A DNA stretch of 64,000 bases from Escherichia phage ECO07P2: sequence record OP172785, one strand, 5' to 3'. Positions within the stretch are counted from its first letter, which is position 1. Each line of letters opens with the position of its first letter. The translations under genes and the position numbers were made by a program. Positions 228 through 30,392 of the stretch are shown in pieces. The notes under the pieces were generated by a model. It searched no databases, was not told where the DNA came from, and worked only from the letters and a program-made list of their open reading frames with translations.

Positions 228-3200
228 ATGGCTACTTTAAAACAAATACAATTTAAAAGAAGCAAAACCGCAGGTGCTCGTCCTGCTGCTTCAGTATTAG
301 CCGAAGGTGAATTGGCTATAAACTTAAAAGATAGAACAATTTTTACTAAAGACGATTTAGGAAATATCATTGATCTGGGTTTTGCTAAAGGCGGGCAAGT
401 TGATGGAAATGTGACTATCAATGGTCTTTTGAAATTAAACGGCGATTATGTACAAACTGGTGGAATGACCGTAAATGGACCTATTGGTTCTACTGAAGGC
501 ATAACTGCAAAAGTTTTCAGATCTACACAAGGTTCATTTTATACAAGAGCCTCAAATGATACTTCCAATGCCCATCTTTGGTTTGAAAATGCCGATGGCA
601 TTGAACGAGGCGTTATATATGCTCGTCCTCAAACTACAACTGACGGTGAAATACGTCTTAGAGTTAGACAAGGAACCGGAAGCACTATTAATAGCGAATT
701 CTATTTCCGTTCTATAAACGGCGGCGAATTTCAAGCCAACCGTATTTTAGCATCAGATTCGTTAGTAACTAAACGCATTGCGGTTGATACTGTTATTCAC
801 GATGCCAAAGCCTTTGGGCAATATGATTCTCAATCTTTGGTTAACTATGTTTATCCTGGAACCGGTGAAACAAACGGTATAAACTATCTTCGTAAAGTTC
901 GCGCTAAAGCTGCCGGAACCATGTGGCATGAAATCTGTACAGCTCAGACTGGCCAAGCAGATGAAATGTCTTGGTGGACGGGTAATACTCCATCATCTAA
1001 ACAATATGGTATTCGTAACGACGGCCGAATGGCTGGGCGTAATAGCCTTGCATTAGGTACATTCACTGCAGATTTCCCGTCTAGTGATTATGGTAACGTC
1101 GGTGTAATGGGCGATAAGTATCTTGTTCTCGGTGACACTGTAACTGGCTTGTCATACAAAAAAACTGGTGTATTTGATCTAGTTGGCGGTGGATATTCTG
1201 TTGCTTCTATTACTCCTGATAGTTTCCGTAGTACTCGCAAAGGTTTATTTGGACGTTCAGAAGACCAAGGCGCTACATGGAACATGCCTGGAAACAACGC
1301 CGCGCTTTTATCGGTTCAAACACAAGCTGATGGAAACACTGCTGGTGACGGTCAAACCCACATTGGATATAATTCTGGCGGTAAAATGAACCATTATTTC
1401 CGTGGTACAGGTCAGATGAATATCAATACCCAGCAAGGTACGGAAATTAACCCGGGTATTTTGAAATTAGTAACTGGCTCTAATAACGTACAATTTTATG
1501 CTGACGGCACTATTTCTTCTATCCAACCTGTTAAATTAGACAACGAATTATTTTTAAATAATTCTAATAATACTGCGGGCATTAAATTTGGCGCCCCTAG
1601 CAAAGTTGATGGCTCGAGAACTATCCAATGGAATGCCGGGACCCGTGCAGGACAAAATAAAAATTATCTGATTATGAAAGCTTGGGGTAATGCATTCGAC
1701 TCCACTGCCGGTAATCGCGAAACTGTATTTGAATTATACGATGGTCAGGGCTATCATTTTTATTCTCAACGTTTAGCTCCAACGGGTTCTGAAACTGTCG
1801 GTGCTCTTCAATTTAGAATTTCCGGCGCTTTACGTGTGGGTGGTGGTATTATATCAGCTGGTTCTATTGTTAGTGAATCAAGTTTAGTTGCAAATAATGG
1901 ATTGTCTATAAACGGCCAAGCTAAATTCGGTGGAACTGCAGATGCATTGAGAATTTGGAATGCTGAATATGGTGCTATTTTCCGTCGTTCAGAAACAGCA
2001 TTGCACATTATTCCTACTCTTAAAGACCAAGGAGAAAATGGTGAAATAGGTAATCTTCGTCCATTGAGCATCGCACTTCATAACGGTATGGTGCAAATGC
2101 GTCATTCCGTCACGTTAGGTGATGATGGTGCAGGCGGTAATATGGTTACTGTTGATAATGATAGTAAACTTGTTGTTGTTACTAGTAATAGTCGCATTTC
2201 TCCTAATTATAATATGCAATTAGGACAAAATGCTTATATAGATATTCAGGCTTCTGACGGCGTTCGTCCAGCAGGGTGTGGTTCATTTGCATCCCAGAAT
2301 GACGTAAACGTCAGAGCTCCAATTTATATGAATATAGAGCGTACTGCTACTTCTGAATACATTCCTATTATTAAACAACGGTATGTAAAGGGTGATAGCA
2401 CTTATTCTATTGGCACCTTAATTGCCCAAGGAGACTTCCGTGTCCATTATCACCAAGGTACTAGTACTACCGGAACCGATATAAGTTGGGAATTCCGTCG
2501 TACCGGTGACTTCCGCTTACCTGGTAAAATTATTGTAGGCAACACAACTTTAGGAACTGATGGTAATATCACCGGTGGCTCTGGTAACTTTGCTAACTTA
2601 AACAGTACGATTGAATCACTTAAAACTGATATTGTTTCAAGTTATCCTATTGGAGCTCCAATTCCATGGCCAACGGATACTCCTCCTGACGGTTACGCTA
2701 TTATGGAAGGTCAGACTTTTGATAAGTCTGCATATCCTAAGCTCGCTATCGCATATCCTACAGGTACTATTCCTGATATGCGTGGACAAACTATCAAGGG
2801 TAAACCAAGTGGTCGTGCTGTTTTGAGCGCAGAAGCAGATGGTGTTAAGGCTCATAGTCATAGTGCAAGTGCATCAAGCACAGATTTAGGTACTAAAACC
2901 ACATCAAGCTTTGACTATGGTACTAAGACGACAAGTAGTTTCGACTATGGTACTAAGACCAGTAATAATACTGGTGCTCATACGCATAGTTTGAGCGGTT
3001 CCACAAACACCGCCGGTGCGCACAGCCACACAAGCGCTCTTTATGCGGGCGATAGAGACTCTCCTGGTGGTAGTTCTGCAAGAGGATCCGCCGGTGGTGG
3101 TAATACGCTTGGAACTTCTTCTTCTGGGGCACATTCGCACTCTATATCTGGTACTGCTGCAAGCGCAGGCGCTCACGCACATACTGTTGGTATTGGTGCT

Positions 3201-3344
3201 CATACCCATACAGTTGGTATTGGTGCCCATACTCACTCTGTTGCGATTGGTTCGCATGATCATACTATCACTGTAAATAGTACAGGTAATACAGAAAACA
3301 CGGTTAAAAACATTGCTTTTAACTATATCGTTCGTTTAGCATAA
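228..3344 (+). CDS. 37: long tail fiber distal subunit gp37 (receptor-binding)
   Basis: 1038-aa ORF; N-terminus [13 protein letters not shown] and C-terminal His-x-His repeat region (GAHSHT, GAHTHT) as I recall for T4 gp37. Confidence 0.95.
2886..2950 (+). repeat. in-frame tandem repeat inside gene 37 encoding [10 protein letters not shown] twice
   Basis: Two ~30-bp units with synonymous differences (ggtactaaaaccacatcaagctttgactat / ggtactaagacgacaagtagtttcgactat). Confidence 0.7.
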
Positions 3345-3349
3345 GGAGA

Positions 3350-3363
3350 GGGGCTTCGGCCCC
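3350..3363 (+). terminator. GC hairpin GGGGC-UUCG-GCCCC between genes 37 and 38
   Basis: ggggcttcggcccc directly after gene 37 stop, followed by U-rich tract; overlaps gene 38 SD region. Confidence 0.4.
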
Positions 3364-3371
3364 TTCTAAAT

Positions 3372-3923
3372 ATGAAAATATATCATTATTATTTTGACAC
3401 TAAAGAATTTTACAAAGAAGAAAATTACAAACCGGTTAAAGGTCTTGGTCTTCCCGCTCATTCAACAATTAAAAAACCTTTAGAACCTAAAGAAGGATAC
3501 GCAGTTGTATTTGATGAACGTATTCAGGATTGGATTTATGAAGAAGACCATCGCGGTAAACGGGCTTGGACTTTTAATAAAGAAGAAATCTTAATAACTG
3601 ACATAGGAAGCCCGGTTGGTATAACTTTTGATGAACCCGGCGAATTTGATATATGGACTGATGATGGTTGGAAAGAAGACGAAACATATAAACGCGTTTT
3701 AATTCGTAATAGAAAAATTGAAGAATTATATAAAGAATTCCAAGTATTGAATAATATGATCGAAGCTTCAGTTGCAAATAAAAAGGAAAAATTCTATTAT
3801 CAAAACCTTAAACGGTTCTTTGCTCTTTTAGAAAAGCATGAGCATTTAGGTGGTGAATTTCCTAAATGGCCTGAAAAAGAACGGAAGCCTTGGTATAAGC
3901 GTTTATTCAGGAATTACGTATAA
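3372..3923 (+). CDS. 38: gp38 tail fiber assembly chaperone (T4 type, 183 aa)
   Basis: 183-aa ORF MKIYHYYFDTKEFYKEENYKP; same size and position as T4 gp38; SD aaggagagg upstream. Confidence 0.9.
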   Translation: MKIYHYYFDTKEFYKEENYKPVKGLGLPAHSTIKKPLEPKEGYAVVFDERIQDWIYEEDHRGKRAWTFNKEEILITDIGSPVGITFDEPGEFDIWTDDGWKEDETYKRVLIRNRKIEELYKEFQVLNNMIEASVANKKEKFYYQNLKRFFALLEKHEHLGGEFPKWPEKERKPWYKRLFRNYV

Positions 3924-3926
3924 ATA
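3919..3926 (+). promoter_or_regulatory. late promoter TATAAATA upstream of holin gene t
   Basis: Exact TATAAATA ~19 nt upstream of ATG 3945, followed by SD AAAGGAGG. Confidence 0.6.
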
Positions 3927-3944
3927 TCCTTAAAAGGAGGGTCT

Positions 3945-4601
3945 ATGGCAGCACCTAGAATATCATTTTCGCCCTCTGATATTCTGTTGGGTGTTCTAGA
4001 TCGCTTGTTCAAAGATAACGCTACCGGGAAGGTTCTTGCTTCCCGGGTAGCTGTCGTAATTCTTTTATTTATGATGGCGATTGTTTGGTATAGGGGAGAT
4101 AGTTTCTTTGAGTACTATAAGCAATCAAAGTATGAAACATACCGTGAAATTATTGAAAAGGAAAGAAATGCACGCTTTGAATCTGTCGCCCTGGAACAAC
4201 TCCAGATAGTTCATATATCATCTGAGGCAGACTTTAGTGCGGTGTATTCTTTCCGCCCTAAAAACTTAAACTATTTTGTTGATATTATAGCATATGAAGG
4301 AAAATTACCTTCAACAATAAGTGAAAAATCACTTGGAGGATATCCTGTTGATAAAACTATGGATGAATATACAGTTCATTTAAATGGACGTCATTATTAT
4401 TCCAACTCAAAATTTGCTTTTTTACCAACTAAAAAGCCTACTCCCGAAATAAATTACATGTACAGTTGTCCATATTTTAATTTGGATAACATCTATGCTG
4501 GAACAATAACCATGTACTGGTATAGAAATGATCATATAAGTAATGACCGCCTTGAATCAATATGTTCTCAGGCGGCCAGAATATTAGGAAGGGCTAAATA
4601 A
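3945..4601 (+). CDS. t: holin t (lysis inhibition-sensitive holin)
   Basis: 218-aa ORF MAAPRISFSPSDILLGVLDRLFKD with N-terminal TM segment; position after gene 38 as in T4. Confidence 0.9.
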   Translation: MAAPRISFSPSDILLGVLDRLFKDNATGKVLASRVAVVILLFMMAIVWYRGDSFFEYYKQSKYETYREIIEKERNARFESVALEQLQIVHISSEADFSAVYSFRPKNLNYFVDIIAYEGKLPSTISEKSLGGYPVDKTMDEYTVHLNGRHYYSNSKFAFLPTKKPTPEINYMYSCPYFNLDNIYAGTITMYWYRNDHISNDRLESICSQAARILGRAK

Positions 4602-5896: not shown

Positions 5897-6357
5897 TAGT
5901 AAAGGTCCTCAGAGTAAAGTTCTTTTTCACTACCACCGCGTTCAATACGTACTTGTCCAGCGTAAGTTGCAATAATCATTGCTTCTTCACGTGTCCAATA
6001 ATTACTATATTGGTCAATAAACCCTTGGTCATCATCACAAACTTGTTGAGTAACTAATTGAGGTTTAACTACATCTAAAACTGCTGCCATATCTTTAGAA
6101 TAATGACGAGCACCCGGAATAACAAGAATTCGTCCATCTTTTAATTTAAAACGGTTGGCCGCGCAAACAATCCGTCGTTGGTACTTTTGATTTTCATCCC
6201 AATATGCGGTCTGCCAACAGATTTCAGGAACTTCTTTTAAAATATCTTCTTCTGTATATTCACCGCTGTAAGAAGCTAATTTAGCAGCCAGACTTTCTGG
6301 AGTCTCACGTGACAAAGCTTTATCTAACAGAGCTAAACGTTCTTTAAAAGTTTTCAT
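5896..6357 (-). CDS. hypothetical protein (153 aa)
   Basis: Track ORF with 4-nt overlaps to both neighbours typical of T4 early operons. Confidence 0.6.
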
Positions 6358-6683
6358 TTAAACCATCCTTTAATACGTTGCCACAAAGTTTTCTGTTGAG
6401 CTTTGTTAACGCCAATTGAGCGAATAACTGGTTGAGATTCCTGAAATTCTTTATAATCAGCAAGGTAAATTTCGTAAGCTGCATCCGTAAAGGAACTTAT
6501 CGCTGCCATGAAATTATTGCGAATACCTACTGGAACATCTTTACTTTCACGAATAATCATGTATTTGCCAGTCTTAATCTTTACGATAGTTCCAAGATAA
6601 GCTCCATGGTACCAGATATCCCACCCCTCTTGAGTGGGTTCTGCACAACGACGAAGTTCATTGATAATTTCTAACTTGTTCAT
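6354..6683 (-). CDS. hypothetical protein (109 aa)
   Basis: Track [30 protein letters not shown]; immediately downstream of motA. Confidence 0.6.
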
Positions 6684-6693
6684 TATTTATTCC

Positions 6694-15545: not shown

Positions 15546-17362
15546 TACTGACTCATCCATTCTTTACGAAGGTCAGCATTATCTCCCATGAGCATTTCAA
15601 AAAGCTCTTTCCAGTTCTCAGGAAGTTTAACAACATCATATACTGGATTTTGAATCATCTCACGATATTCAGATTTTTCCAAAGAGCCAAGTCCCTTAAT
15701 ATAACGGATGCTATGTTTAGGTAGAGCATCTTTAGCACTCTCATATTCAGCGACTGTATAAAACCATTCTTGTTTTTTACCGACCTGAGCGATGATTACA
15801 GGAGTTTTGACAAAGCGAATTCTTCCTTGTTCAAACAGTTCTGGCCAATTACTGAAAAATCCGAGCAGAGAAGGATAAATGCTTCCTAGACCATCGTGGT
15901 CAGCGTCAGTCATAATAGCAATATTATGATAATTCAAGTTTTCGGCTTTTTCACCAAGAACTAATCCAGTGATTGCGCAAATATCAAACAGTTCTTTGTT
16001 TTTAAGCATATCAGCATATGACATACCCCAACTGTTGAGAACTTTACCACGTAATGGATAACCACCATGAAGTTCTTTATCACGAACATCAATAAGATAT
16101 CCGATAGCGGAATCACCCTCAGTCAAGAAAAGAGTAGTGTCAGCATCTTTACCACAAAGATTCGCTTTAATATGTTTATGAACCTTAGCTTTAGAAGCCT
16201 TTTTAGCTGCTTTAGTTTCTGCTGCTTTTTCTGCCGCCAATTTACGAGCCAAGGCAGCTTCAATGATTGGCATTAAAATTGCTTCATTGTTTAAAATAGC
16301 GCGTGAAATCTTTTTAGCATCAAGCTGAATATGACTACGAATTTCACCAAAAGGAGAAGTCAAACGCTCTTTAGTTTGAGAATCAAATCGCATGTTTTTC
16401 ATATCACGAACAAACATAACGATAGTCAAACATTCTTTAACACGTGCTTTAGTTACATCAATTTTAAATTTACGTTTGATTTGTGGAATAAGGTCTTCAC
16501 AAATATCATCCATAACACAGTCAATGTGATGACCACCATTCTTAGTATGAATGTTATTGACGTATGTTAATTGACGAAAACCATCCGGTGAACGACCAAC
16601 CGCAATAGAGCAATTTTCCTGTTCTTGAACGATAGCATGCTCATCATACTGGCGTGCATACTTCTTAAAATTGCCCTGAACCTTTTTACCATTAAAGGTA
16701 AATTGAATATCAGGATAAACTACTGCAAGTGTCTGGAGACGATCTAGTGTAATGTCAAGATAAACTTGGGACAGCTCATTAGTTTCAAATGACATAAAAT
16801 CAGGAATGAAAGTAACGCGAGTTCCTTTCCATTTTCCAGGAATAGTTTCCCATGATTTATTTTCCATGCCGTTTGAACAACGAACTACAATATTATTTTG
16901 ACCGTCGCCAGTTTCACCGACAAACATCACAGAAAAAATGTTAGTTAAACTAGAACCAACACCGTTCATACCGCCAGTGACGCGTTCTTTGTCATCACCG
17001 AAGTTACCACCTGCTTTTGGAATAGTCCATGCAGCAACAGGACCAGGAATTTCTTCACCGGTAGGTGTTTTAACCATCGCCTGTGGAATACCACGACCGT
17101 TATCTTCAACTGTTACTTGATTGTTTTTAATAGTAACATTAATTTTATTCGCGAATTTAAACTTAGTACGAATACCTTCATCTACTGAGTTATCGATAAT
17201 TTCATCAATAAGCTTAACAAGACCAGGTACATACTGAACACTTTCCCATTTACCAAACAGAAAGCGCTCATGCATTTCATTAGCAGAAGAGCCAATATAC
17301 ATGCCGCTACGCTTTTTGATATGTTCAATATCGCTCAGAATTTTAATTTCATTCTTAATCAT
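15545..17362 (-). CDS. 39: DNA topoisomerase II large (ATPase) subunit, uninterrupted gp39 form
   Basis: ~605-aa ORF MIKNEIKILSDIEHIKKRSGMYIGSS ... RKEWMSQ with GyrB-like motifs through the C-terminus in one frame; start set to ATG after GTG in track. Confidence 0.9.
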   Translation of the reverse strand: MIKNEIKILSDIEHIKKRSGMYIGSSANEMHERFLFGKWESVQYVPGLVKLIDEIIDNSVDEGIRTKFKFANKINVTIKNNQVTVEDNGRGIPQAMVKTPTGEEIPGPVAAWTIPKAGGNFGDDKERVTGGMNGVGSSLTNIFSVMFVGETGDGQNNIVVRCSNGMENKSWETIPGKWKGTRVTFIPDFMSFETNELSQVYLDITLDRLQTLAVVYPDIQFTFNGKKVQGNFKKYARQYDEHAIVQEQENCSIAVGRSPDGFRQLTYVNNIHTKNGGHHIDCVMDDICEDLIPQIKRKFKIDVTKARVKECLTIVMFVRDMKNMRFDSQTKERLTSPFGEIRSHIQLDAKKISRAILNNEAILMPIIEAALARKLAAEKAAETKAAKKASKAKVHKHIKANLCGKDADTTLFLTEGDSAIGYLIDVRDKELHGGYPLRGKVLNSWGMSYADMLKNKELFDICAITGLVLGEKAENLNYHNIAIMTDADHDGLGSIYPSLLGFFSNWPELFEQGRIRFVKTPVIIAQVGKKQEWFYTVAEYESAKDALPKHSIRYIKGLGSLEKSEYREMIQNPVYDVVKLPENWKELFEMLMGDNADLRKEWMSQ

Positions 17363-17415
17363 CACTTATCCTCGTTTGGTTTCGGGAATATTATACTCCA
17401 GTAATCATAAAGCTA

Positions 17416-17431
17416 AAGGCCCGAAGGCCTT
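17416..17431 (-). terminator. GC hairpin aaggcccgaaggcctt
   Basis: Perfect 6-bp stem, tetraloop, flanked by T-rich tract. Confidence 0.4.
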
Positions 17432-17692
17432 TTATTTAAAGCGGATAGTCGAATCCTTGAAGAATAGACCAGAACATACGGTTCCTTCTACTTTCTGCCC
17501 GGTAGGTCCAATAGCACGAAATCCAGTATGTTGGAAATCATTTTCAGAGCAACCGAACCAATTATATCCAGTGATTTCAATATTAGTAAAACCACTTGAA
17601 GACAAAACTTTGGTTGCATTATCAGCATCAGTACATCCTACTAAAGATACTGCTAATACTAATGCCGCGATAGAACGATTAACATATTTCAT
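17432..17692 (-). CDS. putative lipoprotein (39.1 position, ~86 aa)
   Basis: MKYVNRSIAALVLAVSLVGC: signal peptide with lipobox L-V-G-C; start trimmed to ATG. Confidence 0.6.
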   Translation of the reverse strand: MKYVNRSIAALVLAVSLVGCTDADNATKVLSSSGFTNIEITGYNWFGCSENDFQHTGFRAIGPTGQKVEGTVCSGLFFKDSTIRFK

Positions 17693-17696
17693 AATT

Positions 17697-18068
17697 TCAC
17701 TCAAATTTAATGGCTTGAAGGAGACTAATAATTCTCAAGCGACTTCTTTCATCTTTAACTGTAAAAGAAAGAGGGTCACCAGATTTCATAGTGATGGTGC
17801 ATCCAAAATCAAAATCTTCTGTAACTTCTTCGAATAGGTCAAACTCTTCATCATAAATTAGAACATTACTCTGAAAACTGTGAAGAATTTTTCCATCATT
17901 TCCAGATGCTGTACTAATCATTGTAACATTATTACCCTTCATATCTTCAACGATAAATTCGCTTGTAGATATTACATTACTAATAGAACCATTCCTATAA
18001 ATAGCAGAAAATAGATATTTCTTTTCTTCGCCTTCGCGAATACGATACTTCTTACCGATTTTAAACAT
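17697..18068 (-). CDS. hypothetical protein (123 aa)
   Basis: Track ORF MFKIGKKYRIREGEEKKYLF. Confidence 0.55.
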   Translation of the reverse strand: MFKIGKKYRIREGEEKKYLFSAIYRNGSISNVISTSEFIVEDMKGNNVTMISTASGNDGKILHSFQSNVLIYDEEFDLFEEVTEDFDFGCTITMKSGDPLSFTVKDERSRLRIISLLQAIKFE

Positions 18069-18070
18069 AA

Positions 18071-18247
18071 TTACCCTTTAAGTAAGTCGTAAAAACCGCC
18101 ATTCACATGCTTAGGAGCAGAAGGCCGACGAATAGACAGACGATGACATTTAGGGCAAACATCATTTTCTCGTTCAGAAATCTTTTTAATTTTTTCATAT
18201 TCATGCCCGCAATCTTCGGATTGGCATTTATAATCATACATTGGCAT
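18071..18247 (-). CDS. FmdB-like zinc-ribbon protein (~58 aa)
   Basis: Not in ORF track; MPMYDYKCQSEDCGHEYEKIKKISERENDVCPKCH has the two Cys pairs and MPxYxY start of FmdB-type zinc ribbons. Confidence 0.5.
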   Translation of the reverse strand: MPMYDYKCQSEDCGHEYEKIKKISERENDVCPKCHRLSIRRPSAPKHVNGGFYDLLKG

Positions 18248-18249
18248 AA

Positions 18250-18654
18250 TTATTCCTTAAAATGTGCTTTTAACATCTGATACAAGGACCATGCATGTTC
18301 ATTATTTTCAATAGTAACTTTCATTACCGGGAATTCTGTGAAATCTTCTATCTGTTCTTGCTCTTCAGAAGCTTGGTATGGATTTTCCACTTCATCAAAG
18401 AACTCAGCTTCGTTAGTAGAGAGCCAAATAAAGTTTTCGTCAAGGATATCAGCGCCGGCACAACGTTTGAGTACACCTGTGGATGTCACAATTTTAGTAG
18501 GACGACTGAGATGGTCAACATCTAAAATTTTAAAAGGTTCCATACCTAAACGTCGTGCGTAGATTCCGTTATCAGTATGGTCTTTAATAAAAGCTTCTTG
18601 AGCTTGTTTATTTTTAAATTGATACCATTTATTAACTTCAAATCTAATAGCCAT
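18250..18654 (-). CDS. hypothetical protein (134 aa)
   Basis: Track [29 protein letters not shown]. Confidence 0.6.
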
Positions 18655-18869
18655 TAATAAATTTCCTTCCAGTAAGTTGTACCGTCTTCAGTGATTTCAC
18701 GGAATACACCATAAATCGGTTGTTTATCACCAACCTTTTCATACACATAAACCGAAGTCAAGTGAGTAAACTTGATGGTGTGTTCCTTTTGAACTACTAC
18801 CAAATCTGGATCGAATAATACATCTTCAAATTCGTCATTAGTGCAATTCTGAACAATTTTATGTTTCAT
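18654..18869 (-). CDS. hypothetical protein (71 aa; size matches T4 cef)
   Basis: Track ORF; identity with cef not verified. Confidence 0.5.
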
Positions 18870-18882
18870 TACAATTTCCTCA

Positions 18883-19164
18883 TTAATTGAACAGTGGAGC
18901 GATGCGTTTCAGAAGAGTAGCAGCACCTTTGGCAAATTTTACATCATGAAAAACAGTTTCTTCTTCCGTTACAACACGAACTTTAATGTTTTCACAATCC
19001 CAATTTTTGCGAACAATCTTCAAAAGCTGCAGTAAATCTTTACATTCAGCAATATCGATAACACATCCACGAGAATCTTCCATTATCGCACGATAACCAT
19101 AAGCCATACCATAATCGTTGAAAGATTGTTCGATGATAATTAAGTTTTCCATTTTATTCTCCAA
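18883..19164 (-). CDS. hypothetical protein (93 aa)
   Basis: Track ORF downstream of conserved promoter/leader cassette at ~19171-19240. Confidence 0.55.
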   Translation of the reverse strand: MENKMENLIIIEQSFNDYGMAYGYRAIMEDSRGCVIDIAECKDLLQLLKIVRKNWDCENIKVRVVTEEETVFHDVKFAKGAATLLKRIAPLFN

Positions 19165-27930: not shown

Positions 27931-28167
27931 TTAACCACCTATTTGTGTAGGCGTAAACATTGCAGCATTCTTAGTTTTCCAATCAGCTGCATCAGAAACT
28001 ACAGTAGAATATGCTGCCTTTTCTGACGGAAAGATTTGATAATGAGAATCTGCGATACGATGCTCGTTAGAATAAATTTCAAACGGAACAGAAACTTCCA
28101 TACCTTTAACTTCTTTGCCTTCACCTGCTGGATGAGTAAAGGTCTTGATGTTAACGAAACCACCCAT
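27931..28167 (-). CDS. soc: Soc small outer capsid protein
   Basis: 78-aa ORF with FVNIKTF and YQIFPSEKAAYSTV motifs recalled from T4 Soc. Confidence 0.8.
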   Translation of the reverse strand: MGGFVNIKTFTHPAGEGKEVKGMEVSVPFEIYSNEHRIADSHYQIFPSEKAAYSTVVSDAADWKTKNAAMFTPTQIGG

Positions 28168-28380: not shown

Positions 28381-28580
28381 TTTGAATGCTCTATAATTAA
28401 TTTTAAGGCTTCTTCGCTGACAAAAATTTCATCAGGACCTTCTTCTACAACCCAATCAGCCATACGAAGCTGATTAGATAAGAGCTCACATACGAGCTCC
28501 TTATCATAATTTTTAAATAGCTGGTCAATACGTTTCTTGCGGGCTTTCTTAAGCTGGCGTTTATTTAAACGAGCCATCAA
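28377..28580 (-). CDS. hypothetical protein (67 aa)
   Basis: Track ORF; basic N-terminus MMARLNKRQLKKARKKRIDQ. Confidence 0.5.
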   Translation of the reverse strand: MMARLNKRQLKKARKKRIDQLFKNYDKELVCELLSNQLRMADWVVEEGPDEIFVSEEALKLIIEHSK

Positions 28581-29095
28581 TAACCTCGGTCTTGACGAGC
28601 GAAGTTTTCAGCATTTTTCAGATAATAAAGTTTAAAGATTTCTTCAGCCGTAAGACCAAGACCTTGGAACATGTTCAGAACGAAATGAAGAATATCAATC
28701 ATTTCGAATTTAATTTCCAACTGATCTTGCGGAGACAAATCAGTAATTAGAGTTTCACGGCGTTCACCATGTTGAGCTTTCCAAGGCTTCCATACAGCAG
28801 ATGCATCTTTTTCACCATTGCTCATGCCGCCAAGAGAAGTCAGAAGTTCACGGAATTCATCGTCAATATAATCTTTTTGATTACGCAGCCAATCAACAAC
28901 TTCGCCTGCAGTAGCCAAATCATCAGGATGACGGTTATATTCAGGTTTATCTTTAGCTAAACGAACCTGCAAAGATTTCTGCATATCAAGCATAACCTGT
29001 AGTGGGTCTTTTTCATCACCGAGAATATCCCAGTATTCATTTTGAGCTTTATCAGCGCCTTCGATCAGTTGTGAACATTCATTAAAGTATGCCAT
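28577..29095 (-). CDS. 56: dCTP pyrophosphatase gp56 (MazG-like)
   Basis: MAYFNECSQLIEGADKAQNEYWDILGDEKDPLQVMLDMQ...ENFARQDRGY; start trimmed from track 29188 to ATG after SD AAAGGA. Confidence 0.85.
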   Translation of the reverse strand: MAYFNECSQLIEGADKAQNEYWDILGDEKDPLQVMLDMQKSLQVRLAKDKPEYNRHPDDLATAGEVVDWLRNQKDYIDDEFRELLTSLGGMSNGEKDASAVWKPWKAQHGERRETLITDLSPQDQLEIKFEMIDILHFVLNMFQGLGLTAEEIFKLYYLKNAENFARQDRGY

Positions 29096-29166
29096 TATTT
29101 TTCCTTTCAATTCATGGGTTAGTAGATTAATTATACAATAAATATATAAAGCAATAAGGAGGACAT

Positions 29167-29367
29167 ATGGTACAAAAATTAATGGCACTTGTTAATGCCA
29201 TAAAAGGTAATAAAAAACGTATAGCTTTTACTATTTCTGCTATGGTAGGAATTTTACTTTGGAATTTTGTTTTATCGCCAATTGCTATTGCTCATGGCGT
29301 TAATATTCCAGTAATTACTCTTGATACATTCGTAGATTTAGCATTTGCTTTAGTTGGGTTAATTTAA
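29167..29367 (+). CDS. small hydrophobic protein on opposite strand (66 aa)
   Basis: Strong SD AAGGAGG 7 nt before ATG; two predicted TM segments; lies in 56-61 gap. Confidence 0.5.
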   Translation: MVQKLMALVNAIKGNKKRIAFTISAMVGILLWNFVLSPIAIAHGVNIPVITLDTFVDLAFALVGLI

Positions 29368-30392
29368 ATCTTAGCATATTTAGATAGCCGCATTTTAGCC
29401 ATCAACCCCTGCGCAATATTATTTTTCATATATTCCATAATTTGTTCAGGGGTTGCACCTTCCTTTCTAATCATATCATTAACATCTTTTGATTTCCAGG
29501 GAGATTTGTCCCAAAACATAACCCTTTCTCCTGCATCAACCAATTTAGTCATTCGTTTAATAGTGTCAGGATGACGAGGTTCATTATCTAAAACCCATAC
29601 ACGTCTATCTTTAAATGGAACAATTTCTAGGTCTAATTGACCACCTGTAATAGCTATACCATTTTCAATAAAAAGTGAATCTATAGGTCCTTCTAGAACA
29701 TATACATCACCATCTTTGACCCGTTCAACGCCATAGATTTTTGTTGCCTCAGGATAAGCTTTGATGGTGATATATTTTTGGGGAGCATCTTTCTTTAACG
29801 CACGTCCTTGAAAAGACTCAGCTTTTCCATTAGCATTATAAATTGGAATAACAAGACGAGGCTCAGGTATTTCCTTTTTGTATGTTCCTGGTGCTATACT
29901 ATTAACTAATTTAGGCCATTCGGTTGTAAACCAAAGATATTTCCATTTGTCCTTTGGAATACAACGAGCTTTTACGTATTTTATAATTGGATGGTCTTCC
30001 GCCAGTTTATCTAATCTAACACATGACGGAAGAGATTTAATTATTTTCTTCTCAGGTTGTTTAGGAAGTTCTTTAGGTTTTTCTACTGGACGACTTTTAC
30101 CTTTTTCTTTTCTTATTTCAAAGATATACTCACGATATAAATCGGGTTCAAACTCCTTTAAATATATTCCGATTGGTGCATGATAGTTACAGTTATAACA
30201 ATGAATATTTCCTTCATTATTATCGCCATAATACCATCCACGAGCTTTATTTTGGTCGGTTTTTGAATCTCCACAAACAGGGCATCTAAACCGCAATTTA
30301 AAAGTTGAACTATTATTTACTTGTGTAAATTTAGGTAAATGAGCTAATGCACGATATGCAAACTCATTATCAATCCAAGGTATTGATGACAT
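29364..30392 (-). CDS. 61: DNA primase gp61
   Basis: 342-aa ORF; zinc ribbon CPVCGD...CYNC and TOPRIM-like region; N-terminus MSSIPWIDNEFAYRALAHLPKF. Confidence 0.93.
   Translation of the reverse strand: MSSIPWIDNEFAYRALAHLPKFTQVNNSSTFKLRFRCPVCGDSKTDQNKARGWYYGDNNEGNIHCYNCNYHAPIGIYLKEFEPDLYREYIFEIRKEKGKSRPVEKPKELPKQPEKKIIKSLPSCVRLDKLAEDHPIIKYVKARCIPKDKWKYLWFTTEWPKLVNSIAPGTYKKEIPEPRLVIPIYNANGKAESFQGRALKKDAPQKYITIKAYPEATKIYGVERVKDGDVYVLEGPIDSLFIENGIAITGGQLDLEIVPFKDRRVWVLDNEPRHPDTIKRMTKLVDAGERVMFWDKSPWKSKDVNDMIRKEGATPEQIMEYMKNNIAQGLMAKMRLSKYAKI

What the first reader, a model, noticed from the sequence alone, without database searches (positions are those of the whole stretch)
29096..29367. Opposite-strand small membrane ORF in the gene 56 - gene 61 gap
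In ~59 kb of minus-strand genes this is the only convincing plus-strand ORF: 66 aa, two hydrophobic segments, and a near-perfect SD (AAGGAGG) 7 nt before the ATG. It occupies the interval where T4, as I recall it, has dam and a replication-origin region; no methyltransferase is present here. It could be a late-expressed or antisense-regulated peptide, or part of an origin region.
Basis: partly seen in the sequence, partly recalled or inferred. Interest (0 to 1): 0.45.

Follow-up and report, generated by a model that had tools for sequence, protein, structure and literature searches.

The report
Conserved late small membrane-protein gene
The plus-strand 66-codon ORF between the dCTPase (56) and primase (61) genes of this T4-type phage is a real, conserved gene for a small inner-membrane protein with its own late promoter; related phages already list it as a hypothetical protein (RB69ORF029w / PHROG 2024), the classic T4 annotation omits it, and its function is unknown.

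Summary
Window 29167-29367 (+) is a 66-codon ATG ORF with AAGGAGG 4 nt upstream. It is the only plus-strand ORF with a ribosome-binding site outside the minus-strand genes in 4602-64000.

It is a genuine gene:
- It matches PHROG 2024 over its full length (E 5e-31).
- Identical or near-identical proteins occur in about 690 phage records.
- dN/dS is about 0.05-0.2.
- Orthologues or paralogues sit in the same place and orientation, convergent on primase gene 61, in at least eight T-even lineages. T4 itself has it, but RefSeq does not annotate it.

An AATAAATA box lies 22 nt before the ATG. It is the commonest variant of the T4 late promoter TATAAATA. The heptamer is strongly depleted in the window and otherwise marks late genes (t, soc, 49). 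14 of 15 lineages keep NATAAATA there.

The product is predicted to be N-in with one transmembrane helix and a short periplasmic tail, with an invariant W-N-x4-P-x5-G-x3-P motif.

It does not replace dam. T4 has a roughly 900-bp dam cassette inserted beside it. It is not part of oriA, although the adjoining 71-bp spacer carries the MotA-type middle promoter of gene 56.

No homologue has a known function. A late membrane or lysis-timing role is a guess. This is an ordinary, already catalogued gene of low to moderate interest.

The parts
29167..29367 (+). CDS, 66 aa plus stop: small membrane protein, orthologue of RB69ORF029w / RB32ORF030w (PHROG 2024)
   Evidence: ORF; phrog_2024, E 5.4e-31, residues 2-66 of 66; annotated orthologues, 692 records; dN/dS 0.05-0.2; helices 2-12, 16-42, 52-63
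29156..29162 (+). Shine-Dalgarno AAGGAGG, 4-nt spacer to the ATG
   Evidence: A GGAGG-core SD with a 4-6 nt spacer is present in all 15 lineages.
29137..29144 (+). Predicted gp55-type late promoter box AATAAATA (positions -13 to -6). Predicted transcript start near 29150, giving a 17-nt leader.
   Evidence: ATAAATA occurs only 4 times per strand in 64 kb against 16-23 expected; other copies precede t, soc and gene 49; NATAAATA 12-33 nt upstream in 14 of 15 lineages, 3 of them perfect TATAAATA; A at -13 is the commonest variant. In vivo use is not shown.
29147..29153 (-). MotA box TGCTTTA of the middle promoter for gene 56 (minus strand). It overlaps the predicted late start site.
   Evidence: the box, an 11-12 nt spacer and TATAAT are conserved in the window, T4, VR25, F31, JS98 and SEA1; consensus from PMC2988021
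29130..29135 (-). -10 hexamer TATAAT of the gene 56 middle promoter, 11 nt downstream of the MotA box
29172..29201 (-). Terminator-like hairpin ATGGCATTAACAAGTGCCAT plus T-run on the minus strand, about 165 nt past the gene 61 stop and inside codons 6-12 of the ORF. Found in Tequatrovirus only.
   Evidence: scan; present in the window and T4, absent in the 8 other lineages
29364..29367 (.). TTAA shared by the two convergent stop codons (ORF TAA at 29365-29367; gene 61 TAA read from 29366 down to 29364)
   Evidence: The same 4-nt overlap is seen in F31, VR25, JS98, Marfa, Entb_45, PEi26 and RB69.
28577..29095 (-). Flanking gene 56 (dCTPase/dUTPase), 172 aa
   Evidence: phrog_173, E 1e-46
29364..30392 (-). 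Flanking gene 61 (DNA primase), 342 aa
   Evidence: phrog_47, E 9e-107; 98.8% identical to T4 gp61

Best explanation
This is a bona fide protein-coding gene, the window phage's copy of the RB69ORF029w / RB32ORF030w family (PHROG 2024).

Expression (inferred). It is transcribed clockwise, against the surrounding early genes, from its own gp55-type late promoter (AATAAATA at 29137-29144, start near 29150). It is translated from a strong SD.

Product (predicted). The protein is about 7 kDa and sits in the inner membrane:
- a basic N-terminal amphipathic helix in the cytoplasm,
- one transmembrane helix (about residues 19-42),
- a 24-residue acidic/hydrophobic tail on the periplasmic side.
The invariant residues W32, N33, P38, G44 and P48 lie in the outer half of the helix and the start of the tail.

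Mechanism (inferred, not shown). The protein most likely works by binding another membrane protein through helix-helix and tail contacts late in infection. The most plausible target process is the timing or control of lysis or envelope events, in the manner of a holin modulator. That last step is a guess, at about 0.2 on its own.

Because the ORF and primase gene 61 share a TTAA stop, the late mRNA necessarily runs antisense into gene 61. This may be incidental.
For: Coding:
- Full-length PHROG 2024 match.
- 692 phage records encode it, 686 at 80% coverage or more.
- The frame and a GGAGG-core SD are kept in 15 lineages.
- dN/dS is 0.09-0.23 for the more diverged pairs within Tequatrovirus (closely related pairs with few substitutions range from 0 to 1.2), 0.08-0.13 in Mosigvirus and about 0.05 in Kanagawavirus. 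In subfamily B, synonymous sites are saturated (pS 0.80-0.93) while pN is 0.13-0.20.
- The position and orientation are conserved between 56 and 61 in Tequatro-, Mosig-, Gapriver-, Dhaka-, Marfa-, Kanagawa- and Gelderlandvirus and in Klebsiella T4-likes.

Late expression:
- The AATAAATA box lies 22 nt before the ATG, the same geometry as the holin t promoter in this window (18 nt).
- ATAAATA is the rarest of the 21 A5T2 heptamers. Other copies sit in front of t, soc and gene 49.
- The box stays with the ORF on both sides of the dam indel, and its position shifts relative to the gene 56 MotA box.
- Published rules: the box occupies -13 to -6, A(-13) is found in 9 of 50 T4 sites, and early and middle transcripts all have the other polarity.
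- No sigma-70-type promoter above background lies on the plus strand upstream.

Membrane protein:
- Hydropathy, with charge +5 on the N-terminal side and -2 on the C-terminal side.
- AlphaFold helices, mean pLDDT 76.
- TMHMM 21-41 for RB69ORF029w.
- Invariant W-N...P...G...P motif.
Against: - No transcript, ribosome-footprint or peptide evidence was found. The T4 dRNA-seq start-site table is not held.
- Nolan et al. 2006 predicted 31 RB69 late promoters and none is upstream of RB69ORF029w, although the AATAAATA box is there.
- The first base of the box is non-consensus in most lineages. In VR25, Entb_45 and PEi26 the predicted leader is only about 10 nt, so the SD sits at the very 5' end.
- SEA1 has ATTAAATA (6 of 8).
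- Nothing links the protein to lysis. It has no homology to any holin, antiholin or spanin, it is not next to lysis genes, and its C-terminus lacks the charged tail typical of holins.
- dN/dS is 0.68 between the two Gaprivervirus copies.
Confidence: 0.72

Rival explanations
1. The main product is RNA. The late plus-strand transcript exists chiefly to pair with the 3' part of the primase (61) mRNA and shut off or process it late in infection, and the peptide is secondary.
For: - The stop codons of the ORF and gene 61 share TTAA in most lineages, so the transcripts must overlap.
- No plus-strand intrinsic terminator lies within 3.6 kb downstream.
Against: - Strong purifying selection acts on the amino-acid sequence, with synonymous sites saturated.
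- A strong SD is conserved.
- In the Logan contig carrying P0120, a different 124-aa gene lies between the ORF and the primase.
- In Roth76 there is an 18-nt gap containing a GC hairpin.
- In SEA1 the two genes do not overlap at all.
- An antisense role could coexist with the peptide but cannot explain its conservation.
Confidence: 0.1
2. It is a membrane protein, but it acts in superinfection exclusion or counter-defence, like the neighbouring early accessory genes (sp, imm, 61.x), rather than in a late lysis or envelope step.
For: - It lies in a block of host-interaction genes; spackle is two to three genes away.
- It evolves faster than its enzyme neighbours: 47-55% identity between genera against 61-85% for gp56 and gp61.
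- Two paralogous subfamilies exist, with gain and loss in Gaprivervirus. This pattern is common in arms-race genes.
Against: - It is on the late-only strand and has a late box. It has no sigma-70 or MotA promoter on its own strand.
- No PADLOC-type or other functional homology was found. NCBIfam and Pfam searches were empty.
- A late-made protein could still protect against late-acting abortive-infection systems, so this rival is not excluded.
Confidence: 0.13
3. It is not a gene. The interval is only the 3' untranslated region and terminator of gene 61 plus the promoter or origin region of gene 56, and the open frame is fortuitous.
For: - A minus-strand terminator-like hairpin lies inside the ORF.
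- A good MotA-type promoter for gene 56 lies just upstream.
- T4 oriA is annotated nearby.
- The curated T4, T2, JS98 and PEi26 records do not annotate the ORF.
Against: - The hairpin is confined to Tequatrovirus, whereas the frame, the SD and the motif are kept in all lineages.
- dN/dS is far below 1.
- In T4 the ORF is separated from the gene 56 promoter and oriA by the dam cassette.
- Gene callers find it in T4 as well.
Confidence: 0.03

Closest known systems
RB69ORF029w / RB32ORF030w (PHROG 2024), hypothetical proteins of T-even phages
   Same: The protein is an orthologue of these. It is 100% identical to the proteins of phages ECO07P3 and vB_SsoM_113 (the latter labelled RB32ORF030w), 97% to RB51's and about 55% to RB69-type proteins. 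It has the same locus, strand and size and a single predicted transmembrane helix.
   Different: Nothing material differs. No member of the family has a tested function. The late promoter proposed here was not among those predicted for RB69 in 2006.
Phage holins (T4 T; small class II holins and pinholins such as S21-68)
   Same: Small, membrane-embedded, apparently late-expressed. The promoter-SD-ATG geometry is like that of T4-type gene t in this window. One depositor labelled a family member 'Holin'.
   Different: It matches no Pfam family at E up to 1, holin families included. The C-terminus is hydrophobic and acidic rather than basic and hydrophilic. It is not linked to lysis genes, and the phage already has holin T. 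The second hydrophobic segment is too short to span the membrane and is not conserved.
Small single-pass holin modulators (T4 RI antiholin; Salmonella phage BSPM4 ORF52, 64 aa, PMC11657625)
   Same: This is the kind of mechanism proposed: a protein of about 65 aa with one transmembrane helix that tunes holin triggering and lysis timing.
   Different: The resemblance is by analogy only, with no sequence relationship. The ORF52 and RI roles were shown experimentally. Here nothing has been tested.
T4 late promoters (gp55/gp33/gp45-dependent, TATAAATA at -13 to -6)
   Same: The box matches 7 of 8 positions with A at -13, the commonest natural variant (9 of 50 T4 sites). The segment downstream is AT-rich, and the box sits 15-22 nt ahead of the start codon in most lineages.
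   Different: Activity in vivo is not shown. The site is not in the published RB69 prediction. I could not check the published T4 list.
T4 oriA / gene 56 middle promoter region
   Same: The 71-bp spacer 29096-29166 holds a MotA box, an 11-nt spacer and TATAAT reading toward gene 56. It is homologous to the promoter upstream of T4 gene 56, whose transcript the T4 record names as the oriA primer.
   Different: This is a minus-strand feature beside the ORF, not part of it. No repeats or origin-specific elements were found in the ORF.

Membership tests
PHROG 2024 (RB69ORF029w-like small membrane proteins) | Full-length profile match | tested here: met
   E 5.4e-31, protein residues 2-66 on profile positions 1-65 of 65. 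Subfamily B, Kanagawavirus and Mosigvirus members hit the same PHROG.
PHROG 2024 (RB69ORF029w-like small membrane proteins) | Locus: between gene 56 and primase gene 61, on the strand opposite to both, converging on gene 61 | tested here: met
PHROG 2024 (RB69ORF029w-like small membrane proteins) | Basic N-terminus, one transmembrane helix, and the invariant W-N-x4-P-x5-G-x3-P motif | tested here: met
   W32, N33, P38, G44 and P48 are invariant in 13 diverse members.
Holins | At least one transmembrane domain in a small protein | tested here: met
Holins | Highly charged, hydrophilic (usually basic) C-terminal domain | tested here: not met
   The C-terminal 24 residues are hydrophobic with net charge -2 and contain no Lys or Arg.
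Holins | Sequence membership in a described holin family | tested here: not met
   No Pfam family at E up to 1, no credible NCBIfam match (only a chance 0.12 hit far below its cut-off), no PDB relative. In the structure search only family members match, and the 'Holin' label is a depositor's name.
Holins | Forms lethal membrane lesions at a programmed time and is required for endolysin release | not testable with these tools
   Needs expression and lysis assays. The phage already encodes holin T.
T4-type late promoter | TATAAATA box (single deviations tolerated, A at -13 the commonest) with an AT-rich segment downstream | tested here: met
   AATAAATA at 29137-29144 followed by tataaagcaat.
T4-type late promoter | The signal is non-random and conserved at the orthologous place | tested here: met
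   The heptamer occurs 4 times per strand against 16-23 expected, and the other copies lie at late genes. 14 of 15 lineages keep NATAAATA.
T4-type late promoter | gp55/gp33/gp45-dependent initiation in vivo | not testable with these tools
   No start-site data were accessible.
T4 replication origin (oriA-type) | Middle-mode promoter whose transcript primes leading-strand synthesis | tested here: inconclusive
   A MotA-type promoter for gene 56 is present on the minus strand at 29130-29153, but it lies outside the ORF. In T4, dam separates it from the ORF. Origin activity cannot be judged from sequence.

The most novel reading that the evidence does not exclude
T4 and its relatives carry an overlooked late gene, absent from the T4 reference annotation. 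Its 7-kDa membrane product would be a new player in a classic late membrane process such as lysis timing, lysis inhibition or a late envelope step. Its mRNA, forced by the shared TTAA stop to run antisense into primase gene 61, would at the same time help switch off primase synthesis, making one locus with both a peptide and an antisense function.
Probability: 0.12. Interest if true: 0.55.

Novelty: already known. Interest (0 to 1): 0.25.

Why it matters
T4 is the reference model for this whole virus family, and its curated annotation (NC_000866) has a 309-bp 'empty' gap between dam and 61. That gap holds a gene under clear purifying selection with a plausible late promoter, shared by at least eight related lineages. 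Adding it to the T4 gene list, and testing a knockout, would be cheap. It could reveal a new small membrane factor of late infection.

The practical consequences are otherwise modest. The ORF is already called by modern pipelines and listed as a hypothetical protein in hundreds of genomes. Nothing in the sequence points to an unusual mechanism.

Tried and rejected
Homology to known functions came back empty:
- No Pfam family at E up to 1, and only one chance-level NCBIfam hit.
- A profile search against PDB sequences gave only chance hits at E of 0.5 or more.
- A Foldseek search of the AlphaFold model against BFVD found only family members.
- An exhaustive profile search of 1.8 billion cluster representatives gave 6 hits, all family members or fragments.
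- A profile word search gave 117 hits, all small proteins with no informative name; those that carry a source are from T4-like phages.

No paralogue exists elsewhere in the window (six-frame hmmsearch).

Literature: full-text searches for the ORF names, for T4 ribosome profiling or small ORFs, and for T4 small late membrane proteins found nothing on this gene. The T4 dRNA-seq preprint reports 150 phage start sites including 22 antisense, but its table is not held. The T4 omics paper does not mention it. Miller et al. 2003 could not be read.

Rejected ideas:
- The ORF as a dam substitute.
- The ORF as an origin element.
- Conservation explained by the gene 61 terminator hairpin, which is Tequatrovirus-only.
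- Expression from a sigma-70 promoter, since no site above shuffle background lies on the plus strand.
- A plus-strand terminator after the ORF; none was found.

The 178-aa plus-strand ORF at 17301-17837 was considered as a second opposite-strand gene. It was set aside because it has no SD and overlaps minus-strand genes.

Full report
**Context.** The window is a Tequatrovirus (T4-type) genome segment. The 2-kb stretch around the finding is 98.6% identical to Shigella phage SH-2 and at least 97% identical to many E. coli, Shigella and Salmonella T4-like phages. Positions 228-4601 carry plus-strand late genes, including holin t at 3945-4601. From 4602 to the end, minus-strand genes cover 94% of the sequence. 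The finding lies between gene 56 (28577-29095, minus; phrog_173) and primase gene 61 (29364-30392, minus; phrog_47).

**The observation.** An ATG ORF of 66 codons runs from 29167 to 29367 on the plus strand.
- AAGGAGG is at 29156-29162, 4 nt before the ATG.
- Among plus-strand ORFs of at least 25 aa that lie mostly outside minus-strand ORFs in 4602-64000, it is the only one with a Shine-Dalgarno sequence.
- Hydropathy shows two hydrophobic stretches, with 19-residue window maxima of 2.0 at residues 19-41 and 1.9 at 47-66.
- T4 Dam has no match anywhere in the window.

**Is it a gene?** Yes.
- The protein matches PHROG 2024 ('unknown function') end to end at E 5e-31.
- tblastn finds it in 692 phage records. 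274 of these are at least 95% identical, including 100% matches, one of them labelled RB32ORF030w. Phage ime09 labels its copy RB69ORF029w.
- For the more diverged Tequatrovirus pairs, dS is about 0.1-0.25 against dN of about 0.02-0.03, giving omega of 0.09-0.23. Closely related pairs have too few substitutions to be informative, with values from 0 to 1.2.
- Mosigvirus gives omega 0.08-0.13. Kanagawavirus gives dS 0.72 and dN 0.04. In a second subfamily, synonymous sites are saturated (pS 0.80-0.93) while pN is 0.13-0.20.
- The replacements seen are conservative: V/I, A/T and A/V.

**Family and locus.** There are two paralogous subfamilies.
- Type A includes this ORF and is found in Tequatrovirus, Mosigvirus (including RB69) and Gaprivervirus.
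- Type B is found in Gaprivervirus, Dhakavirus (JS98), Marfavirus, Kanagawavirus, Gelderlandvirus and Klebsiella T4-likes.
- All hit PHROG 2024.
- All lie between 56 and 61, on the opposite strand and converging on 61. The stop codons usually share a TTAA.
- Gaprivervirus VR25 has A and B in tandem. In TH40 the B copy is decayed.
- The family is narrow. A search of 1.8 billion cluster representatives returned 6. A profile word search returned 117 small proteins with no informative name; those that carry a source are from T4-like phages.
- Invariant residues in 13 diverse members are W32, N33, P38, G44 and P48.
- The ORF evolves faster than its enzyme neighbours: 47-55% identity between genera for type A, against 61-85% for gp56 and gp61.

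**T4 itself.** The same ORF, 94% identical, lies in the 309-bp unannotated gap between dam (16846-17625) and 61 (17935-18963) of NC_000866, with its ATG at 17738.
- The curated T4, T2, JS98 and PEi26 records omit it. A Pharokka-annotated T4 record calls it, with phrog=2024.
- Aligning T4 with the window shows that about 900 bp of T4 (dam and its flanks) replace window positions 29136-29155.
- The ORF is therefore not a substitute for dam. Dam is an extra cassette inserted between the gene 56 promoter and this ORF.

**Expression signals.**
- AATAAATA lies at 29137-29144, 22 nt before the ATG.
- The T4 late promoter is TATAAATA at -13 to -6. Of 50 listed T4 sites, 32 are perfect and 9 have A at -13, and this position is poorly conserved in related phages (PMC2988020; PMC1524935).
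- In this window ATAAATA occurs only 4 times per strand, against 16-23 expected from dinucleotide content. It is the rarest of all 21 A5T2 heptamers, with 8 copies on both strands where most have 43 or more.
- The other copies include the site 18 nt before holin t, the site before the soc-type capsid gene (27931-28167, minus) and the site before endonuclease VII gene 49, which is also AATAAATA. That soc and gene 49 have late transcripts is from my own knowledge of T4.
- Across 15 lineages, 14 have NATAAATA 12-33 nt upstream of the ATG. Marfa, Q7622 and Entb_45 have a perfect TATAAATA. SEA1 has ATTAAATA.
- The box stays with the ORF in T4, where dam separates the ORF from the gene 56 promoter. 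Its position relative to the minus-strand MotA box differs between genera.
- According to PMC2988020, all early and middle T4 transcripts have one polarity, here the minus strand, and only late transcripts can have either.
- No sigma-70-like site above shuffle background lies on the plus strand upstream.

I therefore infer late transcription starting near 29150, with a 17-nt leader. This is not shown experimentally. The 2006 HMM prediction of 31 RB69 late promoters did not include this site, although the box is present there.

**What else is in the interval.** On the minus strand, TGCTTTA (29153-29147), an 11-nt spacer and TATAAT (29135-29130) match the MotA-dependent middle-promoter consensus, which is (a/t)3TGCTTtA placed 12 +/- 1 bp from the -10 element (PMC2988021).
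- This arrangement is conserved upstream of gene 56 in T4, VR25, F31, JS98 and SEA1.
- The T4 record places oriA inside the 5' end of gene 56, with the gene 56 transcript as primer.
- A terminator-like hairpin on the minus strand (29201-29182, then a T-run) lies inside codons 6-12 of the ORF, about 165 nt past the gene 61 stop. It is found only in Tequatrovirus, so it cannot explain the wider conservation.
- No plus-strand terminator follows the ORF for 3.6 kb. A late transcript would therefore run antisense into gene 61.

**The product.**
- AlphaFold, run on a 9-sequence alignment, gives mean pLDDT 76 and helices at 2-12, 16-42 and 52-63.
- The N-terminal 18 residues carry net charge +5 and the last 24 carry -2. 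The positive-inside rule therefore predicts N-in, C-out.
- The published TMHMM result for RB69ORF029w is one transmembrane segment (21-41) and no signal peptide.
- The C-terminal segment is hydrophobic only in type A.

The family architecture is thus one transmembrane helix plus a short periplasmic tail. The invariant W-N, P, G and P residues sit in the outer half of the helix and the start of the tail. A membrane-buried Asn and a Pro kink are typical of helix-helix contacts; this is general knowledge and an inference here.

**Function.** No homologue has a known role, and no paper on the gene was found.
- My best guess is a small late membrane modulator that binds a larger membrane protein. 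Lysis timing or lysis inhibition is the most plausible process, because the known late membrane proteins of T4 are lysis proteins.
- Small single-pass holin modulators exist elsewhere, for example BSPM4 ORF52, 64 aa (PMC11657625).
- It fails the holin tests that can be run. It has no charged C-terminal tail, matches no Pfam family (holin families included) and is not linked to lysis genes.
- The 'Holin' label on one family member is a depositor's name only.
- Rivals are a counter-defence or exclusion role, or a mainly antisense role against gene 61. Neither can be excluded. The non-coding reading is effectively excluded.

**Verdict.** This is a real but ordinary, already catalogued gene. The points worth recording are that the curated T4 annotation still lacks it, and that it appears to have its own late promoter.

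Noticed in passing
window 17996-18003 (+): A perfect late-promoter box TATAAATA sits on the plus strand in the early region, antisense to the minus-strand ORF 17697-18068. No SD-ATG follows it. It may be a late antisense promoter.
   Followed up: no
window, whole (both strands): ATAAATA is the rarest of all 21 heptamers made of five A and two T. It has 8 copies where most have 43 or more, against 16-23 expected per strand. This implies genome-wide avoidance of stray late-promoter boxes.
   Followed up: partly
window 4066-4073 (-) and 6684-6691 (-): Two further late-box variants on the minus strand. CATAAATA lies inside and antisense to holin gene t. AATAAATA directly abuts the ATG of the 109-aa gene at 6354-6683 (phrog_1594).
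   Followed up: no
window 29130-29153 (-): A textbook MotA-dependent middle promoter for gene 56 (TGCTTTA, 11 nt, TATAAT). It overlaps the predicted late start site of the plus-strand ORF, so the 71-bp spacer holds two divergent, temporally separated promoters. It is conserved in six lineages.
   Followed up: yes
window 29172-29201 (-): A terminator-like hairpin for gene 61 transcripts is embedded in codons 6-12 of the plus-strand ORF. It is present in T4 as well but absent outside Tequatrovirus.
   Followed up: yes
window 28577-30392 compared with L004 (T4): Mosaicism. gp61 is 98.8% identical to T4 gp61, but gp56 is only 73.8% identical to T4 gp56 and 90.8% to JS98 gp56. The window lacks dam, and between soc and 56 it has two small soc.1/soc.2-type ORFs where T4 has segF.
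   Followed up: partly
L005 2495-2901 (VR25) and L007 (TH40): Gaprivervirus carries both subfamilies in tandem. In TH40 the second copy is a pseudogene (ATG followed directly by TGA, plus a deletion). The first copy shows relaxed constraint, with dN/dS 0.68 between VR25 and TH40. This suggests the two paralogues are functionally redundant.
   Followed up: partly
window 17301-17837 (+): A 178-aa plus-strand ORF overlaps the start of gene 39 and two minus-strand ORFs. It has no SD and is probably spurious, though unusually long for an AT-rich genome.
   Followed up: no
database records of family members (P0025, P0056, P0065): Source names are misleading: 'Holin' (OE5505, UniRef), 'DNA packaging ATPase' (SAKp28) and 'dCTP pyrophosphatase' (SEA1, UniRef). 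None is backed by similarity to those families.
   Followed up: partly
L025 1533-1540 (RB69 16032-16039, +): RB69 has AATAAATA 21 nt before RB69ORF029w, but this site is not among the 31 late promoters predicted for RB69 in Nolan et al. 2006. That paper stated late promoters were found only upstream of T4 late-gene orthologues.
   Followed up: yes
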